The notes: generated by a model from the sequence alone, not told the origin. Shown: positions 7,744-63,980, counted from the stretch's first letter. The stretch is DNA of 64,000 bases from Dehalococcoidia bacterium (GCA_965220375.1 OZ244824.1:776406-840405), one strand, 5' to 3'. Program-made: numbers and translations.

Positions 7744-7941
7744 GCCGTCGCCTCCTCAATGGTGTCCAGATGTTTGCAGTATAGGGGGATTCCAGCCTAT
7801 CGCCAAGGCGGGCACCCACACCCGGCCAGCTGGTGGCTGCGCCCTTTCCGATGTCTGTCCCAGATGATAGGATAGCCCTGCTAGAGGTACATCCAGGGAA
7901 TGTCCCCATTCCCAAGCTCGGACCACTCAGAGGAGGGAAAG

Positions 7942-9090
7942 ATGGCATCAGAAGATTGGGGCAGCATATACAAAGAACTGGGAGCAACTCCCATAATCAA
8001 CGCCATCGGCAGCCTGACCCTGCTGGGAGGCTCGGTTCCCGCGCCGGAGGTGAAGGAGGCCATGGAGCGGGCCAACAGCGCCTACATACCCTTGATGGAG
8101 CTCCAGGAAAAGGCGGGTGCGGCCGTGGCGGAGATGGCGGATGTGCCCGCCGCATACGTCACTTCAGGTGCAGGCTCAGCCCTAACCCTGGCTACGGCAG
8201 CGGTAATGGCCGGGGACGACGACGCCAAGATACAGCAGCTACCCGACACCACAGGAATGAAGAACGAAATCCTCATCCAGACGAGGCAGAGGTACTGGTA
8301 CGACAGGTGCCTGGAGCTGGCCGGCGCAAAGCTGGTGAACTTCGGGAGCGCCGATGGCACCACCCCGGATGACCTGGAGGCTGCCATAGGCCCCAACACT
8401 GCCGCGGTGGTCTACTACGCCACCGAGCAGTACCCTGATCCCAAAGCCCTCTCCTTTGAAGACACCCTGAGGGTAGCCAAGGAGCACGACCTGCCCGTCC
8501 TGGTGGACTCGGCGGGTCAGATTTATCCCTTGGAGCTGTTCGGCAAGTACGTCCGGGCAGGGGCGGACTTCCAGTGCATAGCCGCCAAGTACATGGGCTC
8601 CACCCAGTCCACGGGCTTGGCCCTGGGGACAAAAGAGATGGTGCGAAAGATATCGCTGCACTCCTTCGTGGGCTACGAGGGACGGCGGATACGGGGCGTC
8701 GGCAGGCCCCAGAAGGTGGACAGGCAGGAGATGATGGGCGTCCTCGCCGCGGTGCGTCGCTGGATGACGATGAACCACGAAGAGCGGCTGGCCGACTCCG
8801 AGAGCAAGTCCAGGACCATCCTGTCATCCCTTCAAGGCATCCCCGGCCTGAAAGTCGAGCTCATCGACAACGTCATCGGACACCAAGCCTTCGGCGTCAC
8901 CTTGAGCATCGATCCTCAAGAGGCGGGAATGACGGGGCAAGATCTGGTGGCCAGGTTGAAGGAGGGCGACCCTCCCATCTGGACCCGGGTGCGGGATGGT
9001 GAAGAGCAGATCATCATCCATGTATTCGGCCTCAGAGACGGCGAAGATGCCATCGTCGGCCAGCGCATCGCCGCCCTCTTCGCCCGCTAA
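7942..9090 (+). CDS. SelA-like PLP-dependent enzyme (DgaE / COG1921-type)
   Basis: The pattern IINAIGSLTLLGGSVPAPEVKEAM and the candidate PLP lysine in AAKYMG resemble the SelA-like family. Start moved to ATG 7942, behind GGAGGG at 7932-7937. Confidence 0.6.
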   Translation: MASEDWGSIYKELGATPIINAIGSLTLLGGSVPAPEVKEAMERANSAYIPLMELQEKAGAAVAEMADVPAAYVTSGAGSALTLATAAVMAGDDDAKIQQLPDTTGMKNEILIQTRQRYWYDRCLELAGAKLVNFGSADGTTPDDLEAAIGPNTAAVVYYATEQYPDPKALSFEDTLRVAKEHDLPVLVDSAGQIYPLELFGKYVRAGADFQCIAAKYMGSTQSTGLALGTKEMVRKISLHSFVGYEGRRIRGVGRPQKVDRQEMMGVLAAVRRWMTMNHEERLADSESKSRTILSSLQGIPGLKVELIDNVIGHQAFGVTLSIDPQEAGMTGQDLVARLKEGDPPIWTRVRDGEEQIIIHVFGLRDGEDAIVGQRIAALFAR

Positions 9091-17723: not shown

Positions 17724-17800
17724 TGGCGGACCCGACCGGATTCGAACCGGCGATCTCAGCCTTGACAGGGCTGCATGTTAGGCCACTACACCACGGGTCC
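17724..17800 (-). tRNA. tRNA-Asp (anticodon GTC), CCA encoded
   Basis: Folded by hand. Acceptor GGACCCG/CGGGTCC, anticodon stem CAGCC/GGCTG with loop CTGTCAA, T-arm GCCGG-TTCGAAT-CCGGT, discriminator G followed by CCA. Confidence 0.9.
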
Positions 17801-17898
17801 GTAGTAGGGTTTCGGCAGTACGATTGTATTTCCTAGCTAGCTATCGTGTCAACGCAGACAGAGAGGATTGGGGGCCGACGGCTCCCACCCTAGAACGC

Positions 17899-18129
17899 TC
17901 AGCCAACTCCGTGATAGCCGACGGTCACCTTGTCGCCCTCCACCACCACAGGGGTGATGCGCTCACCACTCGTCAGCTTCACCAGATCATCGATGGCTTC
18001 GGGATGAAGGGTTACGTCTATCTCGGTGAACTCCACCCCATCCCGGACGAACTCATCCCTCTGGGTGTCCGAGTAGTTGCAGTCGGGGTGGGTGTACATG
18101 ACGATTGTTGTTGTCTTTTCCTGGGTCAA
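17899..18129 (-). CDS. glutaredoxin-like protein with monothiol CxxS motif
   Basis: 76 aa. IVMYTHPDCNYS occupies the position of the glutaredoxin/NrdH CPYC motif, and TPVVV..GYHG follows near the C-terminus. TTG start behind GGAGGTGA. Confidence 0.65.
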   Translation of the reverse strand: MTQEKTTTIVMYTHPDCNYSDTQRDEFVRDGVEFTEIDVTLHPEAIDDLVKLTSGERITPVVVEGDKVTVGYHGVG

Positions 18130-18281
18130 CGAGACTCACCTCCTGGGATGTACCCGGATAGGGACATTCTACGCCAGCTCCGAAGAGCCTTTCAATCCGA
18201 ATAGTGCTGAACGGTTGAGGTCGTTGAGAGAGCAGTGGGCATTGGCTGGCCCGACCAAGGTCGTTTAGCATACAATAGGAT

Positions 18282-18734
18282 TTGAGTTGGTTGATGGTAA
18301 CTGAAGCTGAAGCAAACAGACTTCTCGAAGAGAACAAGACTATATGGGCCAATCTATTCTGGAGAGTGGATCGTGACAGGTTCCGGTTAGATGCCAAGGT
18401 CTTGTGTTTGGAGTCTGGAGAGATTTTGAGCCTGCTAGGCACTATCGGCAAGAAGAACCGAAGCTTCGTATTGCTGTATCAGAACACGCCCATAAGAAAA
18501 TACACGGTCCACTCTTACCACCGGGACCCCGTTACGAGGGAACAGATAAGAGGTCCCCACAAACATACTTGGGACGACCAATGGGAAGATAAGAGGGCTT
18601 ATATACCCAACGACATTCGGATGGGCAACCCGAATGAGGAACTCATGGACTTCTTGGGAGAATGTAACATCACCTTGAAGGGGACCTATACCCCACGAAT
18701 GTTTCCCGCCTCCGGGCAGGAAGGGGGAGGTTAG
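18282..18734 (+). CDS. hypothetical protein (motif GPHKHTW..AYIP)
   Basis: AT-richer ORF. The start could be TTG 18282 or ATG 18294. No family recognised with confidence. Its stop is 5 nt before the next gene. Confidence 0.5.
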   Translation: MSWLMVTEAEANRLLEENKTIWANLFWRVDRDRFRLDAKVLCLESGEILSLLGTIGKKNRSFVLLYQNTPIRKYTVHSYHRDPVTREQIRGPHKHTWDDQWEDKRAYIPNDIRMGNPNEELMDFLGECNITLKGTYTPRMFPASGQEGGG

Positions 18735-18739
18735 TAGGT

Positions 18740-19525
18740 ATGACTATTCTATCTTGTGAAGAACTGATTGGAAGCTATCTTGCTGAACTAAGGGGCAGTT
18801 TTGAATGTGCCCCTTCCACAGCTGGGTGTTTCCTTTCCACCCCCTTCGTCAGGCCAGACGGGGAGGGCATTGAAATCGAGTTACAGGAATTACCCGATGG
18901 CCTCATCAACTTGACCGACATGGGCGATACTCTCAGCTATCTGTATGTCAACGGTCTTACGCTAAGCCAGGCATTGGTGGCGAACGCCCGGCAGATAGGG
19001 AAACAACATGGAGTGACCCTTGACCGCCAGAACCAGTTCTTTATGCAGGTGTCTCCCGCTTTCGTCGGTGAAGGCGTCCACAGGATAATTCAAACCATAT
19101 TGGCGGTGACCGACCTCATACAGAAGCGCCGCCCTATGTCAGGCATACGCTTCGATGATGATGTCGAGTCCTTGATCATCTACAAAGGGGTCAGCTACGA
19201 CGTCGGTTTTGCCGTAAGTGGAGCACGAGAAAGTCATACGGTGAAATTCCACGTAAACTCAGGGAGGAACCTCCTCATCCAGCCCGGTTCCTCGGCACGA
19301 GAAACCTCCGCTCGAATTTGGGCAGAGCAATGGGCCTACCGCTTTAAGGACATCCTAAGTGTTCATTCAGATTGGCGTCCCGTAGCGGTCTTAGATGATC
19401 GCAATCAGCGAGCAGGCATATGGACCTCTCATGCCATGACTCCTATCAAAGAATACGCCGTGATGTGGTCTCGAAAAAGCGAACTCGAATCTCTGCTGGA
19501 ACAAGGCTCCGGCACATCGAGCTAG
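18740..19525 (+). CDS. DUF1828/DUF1829-like hypothetical protein
   Basis: The N-terminal pattern STPFVRPDGEGIEIELQELPDGLINLTDMGDTLSYL matches my recollection of DUF1828 (TPF..D.I.iyv..dg...lsDdG.T). RBS GGGGGAGG. Function unknown. Confidence 0.5.
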   Translation: MTILSCEELIGSYLAELRGSFECAPSTAGCFLSTPFVRPDGEGIEIELQELPDGLINLTDMGDTLSYLYVNGLTLSQALVANARQIGKQHGVTLDRQNQFFMQVSPAFVGEGVHRIIQTILAVTDLIQKRRPMSGIRFDDDVESLIIYKGVSYDVGFAVSGARESHTVKFHVNSGRNLLIQPGSSARETSARIWAEQWAYRFKDILSVHSDWRPVAVLDDRNQRAGIWTSHAMTPIKEYAVMWSRKSELESLLEQGSGTSS

Positions 19526-58534: not shown

Positions 58535-58852
58535 CTAGGCGTTAAGGAGGGTGGAAGCTGGTCGAATATCGGCAGTGAGGGCGGGCCTTTGACCGGCCAG
58601 TTTTCGGAAGTCGCACTCTACCTGTATGCCATGCCAAAACTGGTCAGATTGGCCGAAGAAGACGCCGAAGCGGATGGACATAGTGGGGGTTATGGAGCGC
58701 CTGCCCAGGACAATTTCGTTTATAGCGCGGGGTGCTACGCCAATGGCCCCCGCCATGGCATTTTGCGAAATGTCCATGGGTTTGAGGTACTCTTCCAAGA
58801 GAATCTCGCCGGGTGTGATGTGATCAGGCATGCGTATATCGTATAACGTCAT
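58535..58852 (-). CDS. higA: HigA-family antitoxin (XRE helix-turn-helix)
   Basis: [44 protein letters not shown] is the canonical HigA N-terminus. It lies downstream of the toxin gene. Confidence 0.8.
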
Positions 58853-58863
58853 AGGTTAATTTG

Positions 58864-59142
58864 TCAATGATAGTCCACGATAGCTACCATCTCTGGTCCC
58901 GAGTCGGTCCAACGAAATACGATACGCCACTGGTTGTTGACTCGTATGGAATGGAACCCCGACATTCTACCGGTGAGGGCTTCCAGACGGTTGCCAGGGG
59001 GCACGGCCAAGTCGCTGAGGGTAGCAGCTTGGTTCATCTGGATCAACTTTCTAAGCGCCACCCGCGCCACTGCAACAAAGCGGCGGCTGCTCTCCGAGTG
59101 AAACAGCTCCTGGGTATCTCTATCTCCAAAAGATTGGATCAC
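58864..59142 (-). CDS. higB: HigB-type (RelE-fold) toxin, plasmid maintenance system killer family
   Basis: 92 aa. [36 protein letters not shown] is the typical HigB pattern. Confidence 0.8.
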
Positions 59143-59308
59143 AGGATCGACCCGGTAGAGCTAGCTCTTAATTTGATGGATGTTTCTGTTTCATGAGGAA
59201 AGTTAAAAGATGCCTTCACCTACTGGATGGGGACGGGCCTCACACAGGGGAGTTGGCAAAGAAGACCGCGCAGTTGAGGCTCTTGGGCCACCTGCCTCGC
59301 TCTTGGCC

Positions 59309-60766
59309 TCAGGAATGGGTGAAGTCCTTCAGCTGGGCCATTAGGTACTCCATGGATTGAGAGCCTTTGATCTTGTTGCAGTGGCCGCACAAGAGCTGCA
59401 GGTTCGCTATATGGTGCGACCCGCCCTTGGACTGCGGGACGATATGGTCAACCTCGAACAGCTTGAAGGGGAAATCACCCTTGCAGCCCGCACATAGCCC
59501 TTCCTGCTGGCCAAAGAGTATGTGCTTGTTTTCCTTGTATGGCTTTGGCTTGTCGATGTCTGTGCGCTGGGGGATGTCCGTTCGGACAGTCACATAGCTA
59601 TGGTGGAACAGGCTCCCCATGGTTTCTTGAAGACGGAAATTGACCAGTTCAACAGCCTTGGGAGAGATGTCGATGCCCACCCACTTACGTCCCAGCTTGT
59701 CAGCAGCTACGCAGGCGGTGGCGCACCCGCAGAAAGGGTCGAGGACGATATCGCCTTCGTTGGAACTGGCCTTGATGATCCGTTCCAAGAGAGCCAACGG
59801 TTTCTGAGTGGGATATCCAAGGTGCTCCTTTGAGCGATTGTTGACATTTTGAACATCTCCGAGGAAGTCAGACACTGCTTCGCCTTTGGAGGCAGCGAGA
59901 TAACGTTTCAGACGGGGGTATCCTTTCAGCGTCCAGTCAATTAACCCCGCGCTGGAAAGCGCATCCAACCGGGCATGAACACTCTCTATGGATGTGTATC
60001 CAGGAATCAGGTTGTCATCAATCCACTGGGCATAGCCCCCCTTCTTGGGAACACTCCAACACCGGCCGCTTTGGCCAGGGTCGTAGCCCTGCCAAGGCTC
60101 ACCAGACGCCCCGCTAGACAACCCGGGTCCGGTCAAGTTGTCCACTCTGAATCGCCCCTTCTCGTCTGTGTGCCGGTAGTCCCGCGCGACATAGGATTCA
60201 CCAAGTTCCAGGAATTGGGTGTTCCATGTGTTTCCCTCTGGGGCATAGAAAAGCAGACGGTCTGACACCCTAGCGAACCGCTTTGCGTCGCTGTGGGCGC
60301 TGGTTCGTTTCCACACAACTTCATTGCGAAAACTACCCTCTCCAAGAATTGCATCCATTAGCAGCTTCAGATAGTGACTAGCTGTGGGATCGCAATGAAG
60401 ATAGATGCTGCCTGTGGACTTGAGGACCCGGTGCATCTCCATCAACCGCACAGCCATCATGGTCAGATAGGACTGCATTCCCTTGCCATGAGTCATGCCG
60501 GCGGTTTTCAAGACATGGACAGTAGCAGGCTGCTCGTCGGCGATAAGGCCCATCCATGCGACGTCAAGGTCGGAAAGGGTCCAGGTATCCTTAAAGGCTG
60601 CACCAGCGGCCTTGCTGCCTACCGGGGCCGCGTAGTCCTGGTTGGAGTTGAAGGGCGGGTCCAGGTATATAAGGTCAACACACTCCGAGTTCATGCCCCG
60701 CAGAATGTCCAGGTTGTCCCCGGTCCAAATGGTCTTGTCAGTGAAGTTAGGCGTTCCGGCAGCCAT
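59309..60766 (-). CDS. DNA methyltransferase (N6-A/N4-C, beta class) fused to a C-terminal HNH nuclease domain
   Basis: Motif IV LIYLDPPFNS comes before motif I VLDPFCGCATACVAA (beta-class order). C-terminus: CAGCKGDF..EVDHIVPQSKGGSHHIANLQLLCGHCNKIKG. Confidence 0.85.
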   Translation of the reverse strand: MAAGTPNFTDKTIWTGDNLDILRGMNSECVDLIYLDPPFNSNQDYAAPVGSKAAGAAFKDTWTLSDLDVAWMGLIADEQPATVHVLKTAGMTHGKGMQSYLTMMAVRLMEMHRVLKSTGSIYLHCDPTASHYLKLLMDAILGEGSFRNEVVWKRTSAHSDAKRFARVSDRLLFYAPEGNTWNTQFLELGESYVARDYRHTDEKGRFRVDNLTGPGLSSGASGEPWQGYDPGQSGRCWSVPKKGGYAQWIDDNLIPGYTSIESVHARLDALSSAGLIDWTLKGYPRLKRYLAASKGEAVSDFLGDVQNVNNRSKEHLGYPTQKPLALLERIIKASSNEGDIVLDPFCGCATACVAADKLGRKWVGIDISPKAVELVNFRLQETMGSLFHHSYVTVRTDIPQRTDIDKPKPYKENKHILFGQQEGLCAGCKGDFPFKLFEVDHIVPQSKGGSHHIANLQLLCGHCNKIKGSQSMEYLMAQLKDFTHS

Positions 60767-62326: not shown

Positions 62327-62423
62327 TGCCAGTAGGATTATATAACCGGCGGAACACATGAAGAAGCGATTCCTGCGGCCGGGGACTATGCCACTATCCC
62401 CATCCGGCGCTAAGGATAAGAAG

Positions 62424-62972
62424 ATGCTTGGACAGCGCGCTCCCGACTTCAGCCTGGACTCTGCCAGGGGCGGCCAGGTTGCCCTCGGCGATCTGCTGGG
62501 GCGTCGTGTCGTCCTGGTGTTTGCCCGGCACAATTGTTGACTGGCCAGCCGGGACCACCTGCTGCAGTTGCAGCAGCGCTACGGAGAGATCAGGGAGCTG
62601 GGTTCCGAGGTGGTCGTGGTCTCGCTGGAACCCCTGCACCGGCTGAAGAAGCAGGTGGAGCAGATGGGCCTGCCCTTCCTTATGCTCTCGGACCCTGAAT
62701 TGACGATTTACGCGGCATACGGCGTCCGTCGAGGCTCCTTCCGGGATGTGTTCAACGTGGGGGCCTCGCTTCAGTTCCTTAGACTGCTGTTGAAGGGAAG
62801 GTGGGGGGGGGGAGGGCACGGCGACATCATGCAGCTGGGAGGGGACTTCACCATCGACGAAGAGGGGACCCTGACCTACTCCCAGCCTGCCGCCCGATCC
62901 CAGGACCGGGCCGACGTGGACCTTCTCATCGAAGAGCTGAAGAAGGGGCGGATGCCCAATCCCACAGCCTGA
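62424..62972 (+). CDS. peroxiredoxin-like (AhpC/TSA, PRX_like2-type) protein with in-frame TGA at 62538-62540; candidate selenoprotein, alternatively a nonsense pseudogene
   Basis: Track ORFs 62358-62540 and 62568-62972 are in the same frame and separated only by one TGA. The joined sequence reads VVLVFARHNC-U-LASRDHL.., which places the TGA at the first Cys of the usual FyRGhWCPyC motif. The downstream piece otherwise starts at a TTG with no RBS. Confidence 0.6.
62559..62576 (+). promoter_or_regulatory. hairpin 18 nt downstream of the in-frame TGA (candidate bacterial SECIS)
   Basis: CTGCTGCA-GT-TGCAGCAG is a perfect 7-8 bp stem with G and U in the apical loop. The loop G is 29 nt from the U of UGA. 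Confidence 0.4.
62803..62812 (+). repeat. homopolymeric G10 tract inside the Prx-like CDS
   Basis: Counted directly: ten consecutive G encoding WGGGG. Confidence 0.9.
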
Positions 62973-62983
62973 CGGACCGGGCC
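62825..62983 (+). repeat. left copy of a ~155-bp imperfect direct repeat (functional 3-prime end of the Prx-like gene)
   Basis: Aligns by eye at roughly 85 percent identity with 63833-63980, including about 11 nt past the stop codon. Confidence 0.8.
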
Positions 62984-63005: not shown

Positions 63006-63734
63006 CTACAAAGAGCGTCGGGAAGATAGCTCAGCAACGACTCCGAAATGGTCTGACAGCTTCCTCCCGCCGTGGAGGTTGCTTATCACGTCCACTGACT
63101 CCACTGTCAGGTCGTCACTTGAAACGATGTGGTCAATGCTCTTGCGTCCTTGGAAAGCGAGGGATGCGGTTGCGACCGTCATGCTTGGCGGGAAGGCCCC
63201 CTGGAGCGCCAATTGAAGTTCAGAGGGAGCGCGACTGCCTTGCCCAATAATCTGGTTGAAGTCCCCCATTACGATGAGGTGCTTCGCAGAAGCTCGCGCG
63301 AGAACCTCGGTGAGACCGCCCAAGTACTCTCGATGGTCTTCCCACTGCCTTCTGCGTTCCAACTTGCGTCTGGCTTCGGTCCGTGAGCCGAACCAGGGGA
63401 TGCAGATTCCAACAACTGTGACCGCGCCCAAGGATGTCTGAGTTACTCCAGACACGAACCGTCCGGGTGGCACCGAATTTACTCCTACGTCATCGATCTG
63501 CTCCCAGGGTTCCTTTGACCAGAGTATGACCTTCCTACGACCTTCCTTGATTGCATACCCATAGTAGGGTTGAGAACAGATCGTGTGCCCATGTCGCGAC
63601 AGCAGCCCGACGTGTGTCTCGGTGAGACAGACGACCTCGGGGGCATGTCGATCGATGCGGTGCAGGACTTCGGCCGTTCGACTCGAAGCAGGTGTAGCCC
63701 ACTCGACATTCCATGTGATCACTTTCAGCGACAT
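63006..63734 (-). CDS. endonuclease/exonuclease/phosphatase (EEP)-family protein
   Basis: EEP catalytic motifs WNVE, CLTE, GDFN, SIDHI and LSDH. Confidence 0.85.
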   Translation of the reverse strand: MSLKVITWNVEWATPASSRTAEVLHRIDRHAPEVVCLTETHVGLLSRHGHTICSQPYYGYAIKEGRRKVILWSKEPWEQIDDVGVNSVPPGRFVSGVTQTSLGAVTVVGICIPWFGSRTEARRKLERRRQWEDHREYLGGLTEVLARASAKHLIVMGDFNQIIGQGSRAPSELQLALQGAFPPSMTVATASLAFQGRKSIDHIVSSDDLTVESVDVISNLHGGRKLSDHFGVVAELSSRRSL

Positions 63735-63832
63735 GGCCTACCCTCTTCGCCTATGCTTGGGAACGCTGAGCGAAGCTACTCTGCGCTTAACCGTAGGGAC
63801 AAATGCGGTTGAGGCGCAGAGCCATCATGCAG

Positions 63833-63980
63833 ATGGGGGAGATCTCATCATCGACGAAGAAGGGACCCTGACCTACTCCCAGCCTGCACCCGGTTCCCAG
63901 GACCGGGCCGACGTGGACGTTCTCATGGAAGAGCTGAAGAAAGGGGGAATGCCCGATTCTGCGGATTGACGGGCCAGGCC
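63833..63980 (+). pseudogene. orphan 3-prime fragment of the Prx-like gene (right copy of the direct repeat)
   Basis: Encodes ..IIDEEGTLTYSQPAPGSQDRADVDVLMEELKKGGMPDSAD, compared with ..TIDEEGTLTYSQPAARSQDRADVDLLIEELKKGRMPNPTA in the intact gene. No N-terminal part is present. It carries a 1-nt indel relative to the left copy. Confidence 0.65.

What the first reader, a model, noticed from the sequence alone, without database searches (positions are those of the whole stretch)
62424..62972. Single in-frame TGA at the catalytic Cys position of a peroxiredoxin-like gene: candidate selenocysteine (UxxS) protein
Two track ORFs (62358-62540 and 62568-62972) share a frame and are separated only by TGA 62538-62540. 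Read through, the protein is a full-length ~182-aa AhpC/TSA (PRX_like2-type) protein. The segment VVLVFARHNC-U-LASRDHLLQL aligns with the usual vvLvFyRGhWCPyCrrqL, so the TGA falls exactly on the first redox Cys and Ser replaces the second (UxxS). A perfect hairpin CTGCTGCA-GT-TGCAGCAG (62559-62576) starts 18 nt after the TGA and has G and U in the apical loop, a geometry compatible with bacterial SECIS elements. The downstream piece has no ATG and no RBS of its own. No other gene in the window is interrupted. The alternative is a TGY-to-TGA nonsense mutation producing a pseudogene.
Basis: partly seen in the sequence, partly recalled or inferred. Interest (0 to 1): 0.7.

Follow-up and report, generated by a model that had tools for sequence, protein, structure and literature searches.

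The report
Unannotated selenocysteine peroxiredoxin-like redox gene
The in-frame TGA is very probably a real selenocysteine codon in a thioredoxin-fold redox protein of a Dehalococcoidia bacterium, but it belongs to a selenoprotein family that is already catalogued, so it is a sound yet fairly ordinary find that gene callers miss.

Summary
Window 62424-62972 (+) is one 182-codon AhpC/TSA (PRX_like2, SelL-related) gene with a single in-frame TGA at 62538-62540. A 7-bp hairpin with an AGUU loop starts 18 nt downstream.

It is not a pseudogene:
- All 10 distinct syntenic Dehalococcoidia orthologues (70-99% identical) keep TGA at this codon. dN/dS is below 0.45 on both sides.
- All 55 more distant metagenomic relatives analysed also keep the TGA, as UxxU or UxxC forms.
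- 79 of 87 full-length homologues have the first Cys of a CxxC motif at this position.
- The hairpin meets every published bacterial SECIS criterion. It covaries (4 of 7 pairs with double changes, 96% paired) and depresses synonymous change threefold. It is absent from the one Cys homologue checked.

"UxxS" is not the conserved motif, because +3 is Gly in 9 of 10 orthologues. The conserved feature is a vicinal Cys-Sec dyad. The loop is 4 nt, not 2.

A 2026 review already lists a cd02970 peroxiredoxin-like UxxS selenoprotein family and Prx-like UxxC/UxxU forms. This is therefore a new, unannotated member of a known kind. selA, selB, selC and selD could not be checked in this genome.

The parts
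62424..62972 (+). Complete coding sequence of the selenoprotein. It has 182 codons with Sec at codon 39, and it ends at its own TGA stop (62970-62972).
   Evidence: Translation. Pfam AhpC-TSA, Redoxin and AhpC-TSA_2. NCBIfam SelL_rel_redox aligned over its full length. Start conserved as MLGQ[RP]AP in all orthologues. AlphaFold2 mean pLDDT 90.1 with a thioredoxin/Prx fold.
62412..62416 (+). Shine-Dalgarno-like AAGGA, 7 nt upstream of the ATG at 62424.
   Evidence: Read directly. A purine-rich AAGG motif occupies the same position in distant orthologues L006 and L007. Inferred, not tested.
62535..62537 (+). Codon for Cys38. It is the only Cys conserved in the clade and lies immediately before Sec.
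   Evidence: RHNC-U is invariant in 10 of 10 orthologues.
62538..62540 (+). In-frame UGA read as selenocysteine (Sec39).
   Evidence: TGA sits at the same codon in 10 of 10 orthologous loci and in 55 of 55 analysed metagenomic relatives. It aligns with the first Cys of CxxC in 79 of 87 full-length homologues.
62559..62576 (+). Bacterial SECIS core hairpin. The arms are 62559-62565 and 62570-62576. The apical loop AGUU is at 62566-62569.
   Evidence: -11.1 kcal/mol. It occupies the same position in 47 of 48 distinct sequences, with 96.1% of cells paired. Four of 7 pairs show changes on both sides, and 0 of 500 shuffles reach the observed score. Synonymous divergence drops to 0.09 over codons +2 to +16, against about 0.3 elsewhere.

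Best explanation
The gene encodes a 182-residue thioredoxin-fold redox protein of the PRX_like2 / SelL-related branch of the AhpC/TSA superfamily. Codon 39 (UGA) is recoded to selenocysteine. During translation, the hairpin 18 nt downstream (7 bp, AGUU loop) acts as a bacterial SECIS. It recruits SelB-GTP-Sec-tRNA(Sec) to the ribosome, so Sec is inserted instead of termination; this step is inferred. Sec39 sits at the N-terminus of the first helix of the thioredoxin fold, the place of the nucleophilic first Cys of CxxC. This clade has lost the usual second redox residue at +3 (Gly or Ser) and instead has an invariant Cys at -1. The likeliest chemistry is therefore a selenol-based thiol/selenol oxidoreductase or reductase. 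Its oxidised form would be resolved either by the neighbouring Cys38 (a vicinal selenenylsulfide) or by an external thiol; this is also inferred. Automatic gene callers stop at the UGA, so every public call of this gene is a 113-137 aa 3' fragment.
For: Shown by comparison:
- TGA is at the identical codon in the window and in 9 further distinct loci from Dehalococcoidia genomes or contigs. These share the synteny LigT - Amidohydro_2 <-> prx-like.
- dN/dS is 0.23-0.44 upstream and 0.17-0.42 downstream of the TGA.
- All 14 close database homologues are truncated calls that start after the TGA.
- 55 of 55 more distant metagenomic relatives have TGA there, as A-U-VP-U or G-U-LPC. L011 and L012, found independently through the C-terminal part, give the same result.
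- 79 of 87 full-length homologues have Cys aligned to the TGA, mostly as GCxxC.

SECIS:
- The loop is 4 nt with G at loop position 2 followed by U. The stem is 7 bp. There are 25 nt between the UGA and the loop, and the energy is -11.1 kcal/mol.
- This satisfies all four criteria of the published bSECIS model (PMC13188914, section 5).
- Covariation is strong. It includes the third base of an Arg codon tracking the first base of the partner codon: UCG with CGA or CGG, GCG with CGC, ACG with CGU, CUG with CAG.
- Synonymous-site conservation dips exactly over the element.
- The Cys homologue L073 (TGC) has no hairpin.

Other points:
- TGA is otherwise a normal stop in this genome. It ends 12 of 42 window ORFs, including this gene.
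- Fold: pLDDT 90.1, helix 41-51 begins right after U39, and the best PDB matches are Bcp, ResA and Prx.
- Class-level support for Sec use: BSepDB lists Dehalococcoidia MAGs with 46-49 selenoprotein genes (PMC13326102).
Against: - No selA, selB, selC or selD is in the 64-kb window. The rest of the genome could not be read.
- One of the two peptide patterns used for the metagenome scan encodes the hairpin itself. That sample is therefore biased towards hairpin-bearing genes.
- Within the close Dehalococcoidia orthologues alone there is no true compensatory change, only wobble pairs or loss of the outer pair.
- The hairpin's absence in Cys forms rests on a single DNA sequence.
- There is no experimental evidence of selenium incorporation.
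- The redox mechanism (partner of Sec, substrate) is inference only.
Confidence: 0.9

Rival explanations
1. The gene is a pseudogene. A TGY-to-TGA nonsense mutation inactivated a Cys-type peroxiredoxin-like gene, and the downstream part is decaying.
For: A single in-frame stop sits at a Cys position, one base away from TGT or TGC. All public gene calls are fragments.
Against: The same TGA is present in 10 distinct orthologues that differ at 8-30% of residues, and in 55 distant relatives. The downstream 126 codons evolve at dN/dS 0.17-0.42, with no frameshifts or further stops. A conserved, covarying hairpin follows the stop.
Confidence: 0.01
2. The UGA is a genuine terminator, or the site of non-Sec read-through (Trp, Cys or Gly by a near-cognate or suppressor tRNA). 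In the terminator case the locus makes a 38-residue peptide and/or an internally initiated C-terminal protein. In the read-through case the hairpin stimulates read-through without SelB.
For: The Sec machinery is not demonstrated in this genome. A TTG at 62568 could in principle start a 134-aa product.
Against: No conserved start codon exists downstream. Callers chose different starts in different orthologues, giving products of 113, 117, 127, 129 and 134 aa. A C-terminal fragment would lack the first beta strands and the active site of the thioredoxin fold. The stop sits exactly on the redox Cys of homologues. The hairpin fits the SelB-type SECIS model. The family contains UxxU forms with two TGAs 9 nt apart, which is hard to explain except by Sec.
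Confidence: 0.05
3. TGA is reassigned genome-wide as a sense codon, as in genetic codes 4 or 25. The gene would then be an ordinary uninterrupted gene.
For: None beyond the single in-frame TGA.
Against: TGA terminates 12 of 42 well-supported ORFs in the window, including this gene itself. No other long ORF needs TGA read-through.
Confidence: 0.005

Closest known systems
[quoted passage not shown] It is listed in Table 1 of the 2026 review PMC13188914 (representative MDX2448127.1), which attributes it to Zhang & Gladyshev 2007 (PMC1976440). I could not find this family in that paper's text or tables.
   Same: Same domain family (PRX_like2 / AhpC-TSA_2). There is a single Sec at the first position of the former CxxC and no Cys at +3. 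The window's own motif is literally U-L-A-S.
   Different: I could not retrieve the representative sequence, so identity with that subfamily is untested. In the clade studied here +3 is Gly in 9 of 10 members, and an invariant Cys precedes Sec.
Prx-like thiol:disulfide oxidoreductase selenoproteins (PF00578; UxxC and UxxU) and the NCBIfam family NF040769 'SelL-related redox protein'.
   Same: These are the best HMM match, aligned over the full length. Sec is at the same position. The SECIS hairpin has the same place and the same loop. UxxU-type genes occupy the same syntenic slot, Amidohydro_2 / 104-aa ORF / Aldedh, in marine contigs.
   Different: The window protein and its orthologues score 112-116 bits, below the curated cut-off of 120. 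UxxU, UxxC and Cys forms score 123-166 bits. The +3 redox residue is lost and a Cys appears at -1.
Eukaryotic selenoprotein L (SelL), a Prx-like protein with a UxxU diselenide motif (Shchedrina et al. 2007, cited in PMC2398784).
   Same: Same Prx-like2 scaffold, with Sec at the first position of the redox motif (by way of the NF040769 family name).
   Different: SelL uses a 3'-UTR eukaryotic SECIS and has two Sec residues. Here there is one Sec and an in-frame bacterial SECIS. No direct sequence comparison was made.
The C-terminal Gly-Cys-Sec-Gly of mammalian thioredoxin reductase (my own knowledge), and the bacterial 'CU' selenoproteins in the review table: SaoL, SaoC, SaoB (CUxxT), HgcA and CopZ form 2.
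   Same: Adjacent Cys-Sec dyad.
   Different: These are unrelated folds and contexts. In thioredoxin reductase the dyad is on a flexible C-terminal tail, and in the Sao and Hgc proteins it is linked to (organo)metal chemistry. Here it sits at the N-cap of helix 1 of a thioredoxin fold. Whether it forms a selenenylsulfide is untested.
E. coli fdhF-type bacterial SECIS and the bSECISearch consensus.
   Same: A stem-loop lies immediately downstream of the UGA inside the coding region. There is a G then U in a small apical loop, and the spacing is within 16-37 nt.
   Different: There is no sequence similarity to the fdhF element, and no bulged U is evident. No Rfam model matches.

Membership tests
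Bacterial selenoprotein gene (Sec-UGA plus in-frame SECIS) | An in-frame UGA conserved at the same codon in orthologues, with the reading frame under selection on both sides. | tested here: met
   10 of 10 orthologous loci and 55 of 55 distant relatives have the TGA. dN/dS is 0.17-0.44 on both sides.
Bacterial selenoprotein gene (Sec-UGA plus in-frame SECIS) | Cys-containing homologues have Cys aligned with the UGA. | tested here: met
   79 of 87 full-length homologues have Cys there, mostly as GCxxC.
Bacterial selenoprotein gene (Sec-UGA plus in-frame SECIS) | A downstream stem-loop fitting the bSECIS model: loop of 3-9 nt, stem of 4-16 bp, G in the first two loop positions, 16-37 nt from the UGA to the loop, and MFE of -7.5 kcal/mol or lower. 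| tested here: met
   Loop AGUU, 7 bp, 25 nt, -11.1 kcal/mol. The criteria are taken from PMC13188914.
Bacterial selenoprotein gene (Sec-UGA plus in-frame SECIS) | The structure is maintained by compensatory change, and is linked to TGA rather than Cys forms. | tested here: met
   96.1% of cells paired, 4 of 7 pairs with double changes, 0 of 500 shuffles, and slid controls far lower. The Cys form L073 lacks the hairpin (n=1). Caveat: sampling bias from one search pattern.
Bacterial selenoprotein gene (Sec-UGA plus in-frame SECIS) | selA, selB, selC (tRNA-Sec) and selD are present in the same genome. | not testable with these tools
   None is in the 64-kb window. The SelA-like ORF at 7900-9090 is a DgaE-type lyase. 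Only flanks of 10 kb or less of related genomes can be fetched. There is class-level literature support only.
Bacterial selenoprotein gene (Sec-UGA plus in-frame SECIS) | Selenium is physically incorporated (75Se labelling or mass spectrometry). | not testable with these tools
   This needs an experiment.
PRX_like2 / AhpC-TSA_2 / SelL-related redox protein (NF040769) | Domain models are matched above their curated thresholds. | tested here: inconclusive
   Pfam AhpC-TSA (77.4 bits against 26) and AhpC-TSA_2 (41.4 against 27) are met. NF040769 is the best hit and aligns over the full length, but scores 112.5 bits against a cut-off of 120. Orthologues score 113-116.
PRX_like2 / AhpC-TSA_2 / SelL-related redox protein (NF040769) | A two-residue redox motif C/U-x-x-C/U at the N-terminus of helix 1. 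| tested here: not met
   The first position is Sec. The +3 position is Ser (window) or Gly (9 orthologues).
PRX_like2 / AhpC-TSA_2 / SelL-related redox protein (NF040769) | A thioredoxin/peroxiredoxin fold. | tested here: met
   AlphaFold2 pLDDT 90.1 and pTM 0.86. Foldseek against the PDB gives Bcp4, ResA and Prx1 with target-normalised TM-scores (TMt) up to 0.86.
Canonical peroxiredoxin (Prx/BCP; PxxxTxxC or TxxU) | A peroxidatic Cys or Sec at the second position of the T-x-x-C motif. | tested here: not met
   That position is Ser or Gly, and Sec occupies the Thr position. The alignment to the BCP-type protein P0015 (TPLC) supports this. It should therefore not be filed as a peroxiredoxin proper.
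Catalogued 'Peroxiredoxin-like family protein, cd02970, UxxS' selenoprotein | Sequence relatedness to the representative MDX2448127.1 and a shared U-x-x-S motif. | not testable with these tools
   The motif is matched in the window (U-L-A-S), but the representative sequence could not be retrieved. The family is known to me only from the review table.

The most novel reading that the evidence does not exclude
Within an otherwise known selenoprotein family, this Dehalococcoidia clade has moved its second redox residue from +3 (Cys or Sec in the UxxC and UxxU relatives at the same syntenic locus) to -1. This creates a vicinal Cys-Sec dyad at the N-cap of helix 1 of a thioredoxin fold. If the dyad is the working centre, there are two possibilities. 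It could form an eight-membered selenenylsulfide ring, as in thioredoxin reductase. It could instead be a soft-metal or organometal ligand, as in the 'CU' proteins of the Sao and Hgc systems. Either would be a mechanistically distinct subfamily and a natural example of redox-motif migration.
Probability: 0.3. Interest if true: 0.45.

Novelty: new member of a known kind. Interest (0 to 1): 0.27.

Why it matters
- **Annotation.** Every public gene call for this clade (14 clusters, some from complete 1.7-2.6 Mb genomes) is a truncated 113-137 aa fragment without a name. The active-site half of the protein is invisible in databases. The same is probably true for about a third of the top 150 family representatives.
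- **SECIS evidence.** The family offers a clean natural experiment. A fixed-position hairpin forces coordinated amino-acid and codon choices: Leu pairs with Gln, and Ser, Ala or Thr pair with Arg.
- **Motif evolution.** One syntenic locus carries UxxU, UxxC, SxxC or C-U-xx-G in different lineages, which is useful for studying how Sec-based redox motifs evolve.
- **Limits.** It does not open a new kind of biology.

Tried and rejected
- my first RNAalifold run used wrong coordinates for L001-L003 and is meaningless. I redid it.
- **Rfam:** there was no hit at gathering score or at E<=10 over 62400-62700. This says little here, because the only weak hits were chance matches to unrelated families and nothing SECIS-like was reported.
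- **SelA candidate:** window 7900-9090 hits Pfam SelA weakly, but it is a DgaE/selA_rel PLP lyase (TIGR01437, 191 bits; true selA only 33 bits). I rejected it as Sec machinery.
- **Structure prediction:** I ran it with X instead.
- **SelL paper:** PMC1955791 is not held.
- **PDB by sequence:** only distant BCP and ResA hits.
- **Machinery search not run:** I considered fetching E. coli SelA, SelB or SelD and searching the 5.8-billion-protein set, then recognising the MAG contigs by their lengths. The hit list would be swamped by closer relatives, so success was very unlikely for the cost.
- **Cluster look-up:** it gave no names or accessions for the truncated calls.
- **Other candidates:** a scan for further TGA-interrupted genes in the window found only antisense shadows and adjacent genes.

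Full report
**1. What is in the sequence**

Window 62424-62972 (+) is a single reading frame interrupted once, by TGA at 62538-62540.
- Read through, it gives a 182-residue protein: MLGQRAPDF...VVLVFARHNC-U-LASRDHLLQLQQRY...
- It matches Pfam AhpC-TSA (1.2e-21), Redoxin and AhpC-TSA_2.
- In NCBIfam the best match, over the full length, is NF040769 'SelL-related redox protein'. The score is 112.5 bits, just under the curated cut-off of 120.
- The conserved start is ATG 62424, with AAGGA 7 nt upstream. The longer ORF from 62358 is kept only in the two closest relatives.
Physically it is a 7-bp stem with a 4-nt AGUU loop at -11.1 kcal/mol, not 8 bp with a 2-nt loop.
- Only 11 such perfect hairpins occur on the + strand of the whole window.

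**2. Orthologues**

A search of 5.8 billion proteins returned 14 close homologues (69-99% identity). All are 113-137 aa and all begin after the TGA position, so gene callers had truncated every one.

I fetched the DNA for nine further distinct loci.
- Three are species-representative Dehalococcoidia MAGs (L001-L003).
- Six come from ENA or Logan assemblies, two of them 2.3-2.6 Mb contigs (L004-L007, L009, L010; L008 duplicates L007).
- All share the synteny LigT - Amidohydro_2 <-> prx-like gene ... proA proB.
- All have TGA at exactly the same codon inside the invariant string VLVF[AS]RHNC-TGA-LA[SG]RDHLLQLQ.

Nei-Gojobori estimates between the window and eight of them give dN/dS of 0.23-0.44 for the 38 codons upstream. 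For the 126 codons downstream the range is 0.17-0.42. A pseudogene is therefore excluded.

TGA is an ordinary stop in this genome. It ends 12 of 42 window ORFs, including this gene, so a reassigned code is excluded too.

**3. The wider family**

An exhaustive HMMER search of 1.84 billion representatives found 1941 relatives.
- Of the 87 full-length relatives among the top 150, 79 have Cys aligned to the TGA, mostly as G-C-x-x-C.
- About a third of the top 150 are short proteins that start just after the motif.
- The two short ones whose DNA I read are Sec forms. L012 is G-U-V-P-C, and L011 is A-U-V-P-U with two TGAs.

A metagenome scan gave 60 more loci, and all 55 analysable ones carry TGA at the site. 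They fall into a UxxU clade and a UxxC clade. One of the two search patterns encodes the peptide over the hairpin, so this sample is biased towards hairpin-bearing genes.

The UxxU genes sit in the same syntenic slot in a 145-kb marine contig (L036). UxxU, UxxC and Cys forms pass the NF040769 cut-off (123-166 bits). The clade studied here scores 112-116 bits, which makes it a divergent offshoot.

**4. The RNA element**

In 47 of 48 distinct sequences a 7-bp stem with loop AGUU starts exactly 18 nt after the UGA. On this ungapped alignment:
- 96.1% of cells pair.
- 4 of 7 pairs show changes on both sides.
- One pair takes five standard forms.
- No shuffle out of 500 reaches the observed score.
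- Sliding the partner by 1-3 nt collapses the signal.

The covariation cuts across the protein code.
- The second codon of the 5' arm is Leu CUG, Ser UCG, Ala GCG or Thr ACG.
- It pairs respectively with Gln CAG, Arg CGA or CGG, Arg CGC, and Arg CGU in the 3' arm.
- The synonymous third base of Arg therefore tracks the first base of its partner codon. Protein-level selection cannot explain this.

Among the ten close orthologues there is no compensatory change. There, synonymous divergence falls to 0.09 over codons +2 to +16, against about 0.3 elsewhere.

The element meets all four criteria of the published bacterial SECIS model: loop of 3-9 nt, stem of 4-16 bp, G in the first two loop positions followed by G or U, 16-37 nt from the UGA to the loop, and -7.5 kcal/mol or lower (PMC13188914).

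Three further observations bear on the link between the hairpin and the TGA.
- A Cys homologue (L073, TGC) has no hairpin at that place (a single case).
- The exceptional Sec form L048 has a different hairpin with a GGG loop.
- L074, a syntenic orthologue, has TCA (Ser) instead of TGA and still carries a perfect hairpin. This looks like a recent Sec-to-Ser change or a base-call error.

**5. Protein and mechanism**

AlphaFold2 with a 59-sequence alignment gives pLDDT 90.1 and pTM 0.86. The best structural matches are Bcp, ResA and typical Prx. By sequence alone the PDB holds only distant relatives.

Sec39 lies in the loop that leads into helix 41-51. This is the position of the nucleophilic first Cys of a thioredoxin-type CxxC, and of the Thr in the Prx TxxC motif.

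The position that would hold the peroxidatic Cys of a true peroxiredoxin is Ser here and Gly in the other nine orthologues. The protein should therefore not be called a peroxiredoxin, and 'UxxS' is not the conserved motif.

The only Cys conserved in the clade is Cys38, directly before Sec. I infer a selenol-based oxidoreductase. Its oxidised Sec would be resolved by Cys38 (a vicinal selenenylsulfide) or by an external thiol. This step is inference only.

SelB-dependent insertion is also inferred.
- The window has no tRNA-Sec, selA, selB or selD.
- Its SelA-like ORF at 7900-9090 is a DgaE-type lyase.
- I could not read the rest of the genome.
- BSepDB reports Dehalococcoidia MAGs with 46-49 selenoprotein genes, so the trait is common in the class (PMC13326102).

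**6. Comparison with what is known**

Prx-like selenoproteins with UxxC have been catalogued since the Sargasso Sea and GOS surveys (PMC2398784).

The 2026 review table lists two relevant families (PMC13188914):
- 'Prx-like thiol:disulfide oxidoreductase (UxxC, UxxU)'.

'CU' dyads are also known in other bacterial selenoprotein families, such as SaoL, SaoC, SaoB and HgcA.

The finding is therefore a correct identification of an unannotated member of a known selenoprotein kind. Its clade-specific twist is the Cys-Sec dyad and the loss of the +3 residue. Whether that twist matters mechanistically is open.

**7. Verdict**

- Novelty is low: a new member of a known kind.
- Interest is about 0.27.
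- The main gap is the untested presence of the Sec machinery in the same genome.

Noticed in passing
window 62825-62983 and 63823-63980, flanking 63006-63734 (-): A 159-bp imperfect direct repeat (84% identity) of the 3' end of the selenoprotein gene brackets a minus-strand Exo_endo_phos (EEP nuclease/phosphatase) gene. The second copy is a decayed, out-of-context remnant (...IIDEEGTLTYSQPAPGSQDRADVDVLMEELKKGGMPDSAD*). The same arrangement is in L004 and L005. More distant orthologues (L006-L010) have neither the EEP gene nor the repeat. It looks like an old roughly 1-kb insertion into the gene's 3' end that brought or created a replacement end.
   Followed up: partly
L074 1001-1540 (JGI 3300060026, contig Ga0586925_0006308): A syntenic orthologue (Amidohydro_2 / 101-aa ORF / Aldedh) has TCA (Ser) exactly where the others have TGA, keeps Cys at +3 (F-S-S-R-P-C), and retains a perfect CUGUCGC-AGUU-GCGACAG hairpin. 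It is either a recent Sec-to-Ser substitution with a fossil SECIS, or a base-call error.
   Followed up: partly
window 7900-9090 (+): This ORF hits Pfam SelA weakly, but it is a DgaE/selA_rel PLP-dependent ammonia-lyase (TIGR01437, 191 bits; true selA model only 33 bits). It sits among amidohydrolase genes. It is a false friend for anyone looking for Sec machinery.
   Followed up: yes
window 62803-62812 (+): A run of ten G lies inside the selenoprotein coding sequence (RWGGGGHGD). Relatives have GGGTGTGGGG or GGGTGGGGGG (RWVWGGHGD, RWVGGGHGD). The frame is intact here, but such a tract is prone to slippage or to homopolymer sequencing error. It lies in the low-confidence loop of the model.
   Followed up: partly
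window 58535-60766 (-); L004 3848-7561; L005 5119-8185: There is a variable island between the pyrB-like gene and LigT. The window has a HigA antitoxin plus a 485-aa N6/N4 DNA methyltransferase fused to an HNH nuclease. L004 has a similar Mtase-HNH plus a weak CoiA_N match (PF25164). L005 has two DndB-family genes, one with a weak HEPN match, at the same place. It is probably a defence or restriction hot spot.
   Followed up: no
L011, L013-L047, L057, L058, L066, L067: A large, mostly marine or deep-water clade of the same family carries two Sec codons 9 nt apart (A-U-V-P-U, a UxxU motif like eukaryotic SelL). A single hairpin follows the second UGA at a shorter distance. The same hairpin would have to serve both UGAs.
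   Followed up: partly
window 17724-19525 and 30997-31944: Low-GC3 ORFs (DUF6978, DUF1828) lie next to the only tRNA gene, tRNA-Asp at 17724-17800 (-). This suggests an integrated element. An IS110-family transposase is at 30997-31944 (-). Another low-GC3 HNH endonuclease gene is at 695-2032.
   Followed up: no
L006 193-774, L007 1-526, L010 1-415: In the orthologous loci that lack the EEP insertion, a Cu/Zn superoxide dismutase gene (Sod_Cu) lies about 2 kb upstream of the selenoprotein gene. This is a weak hint of an oxidative-stress neighbourhood.
   Followed up: no
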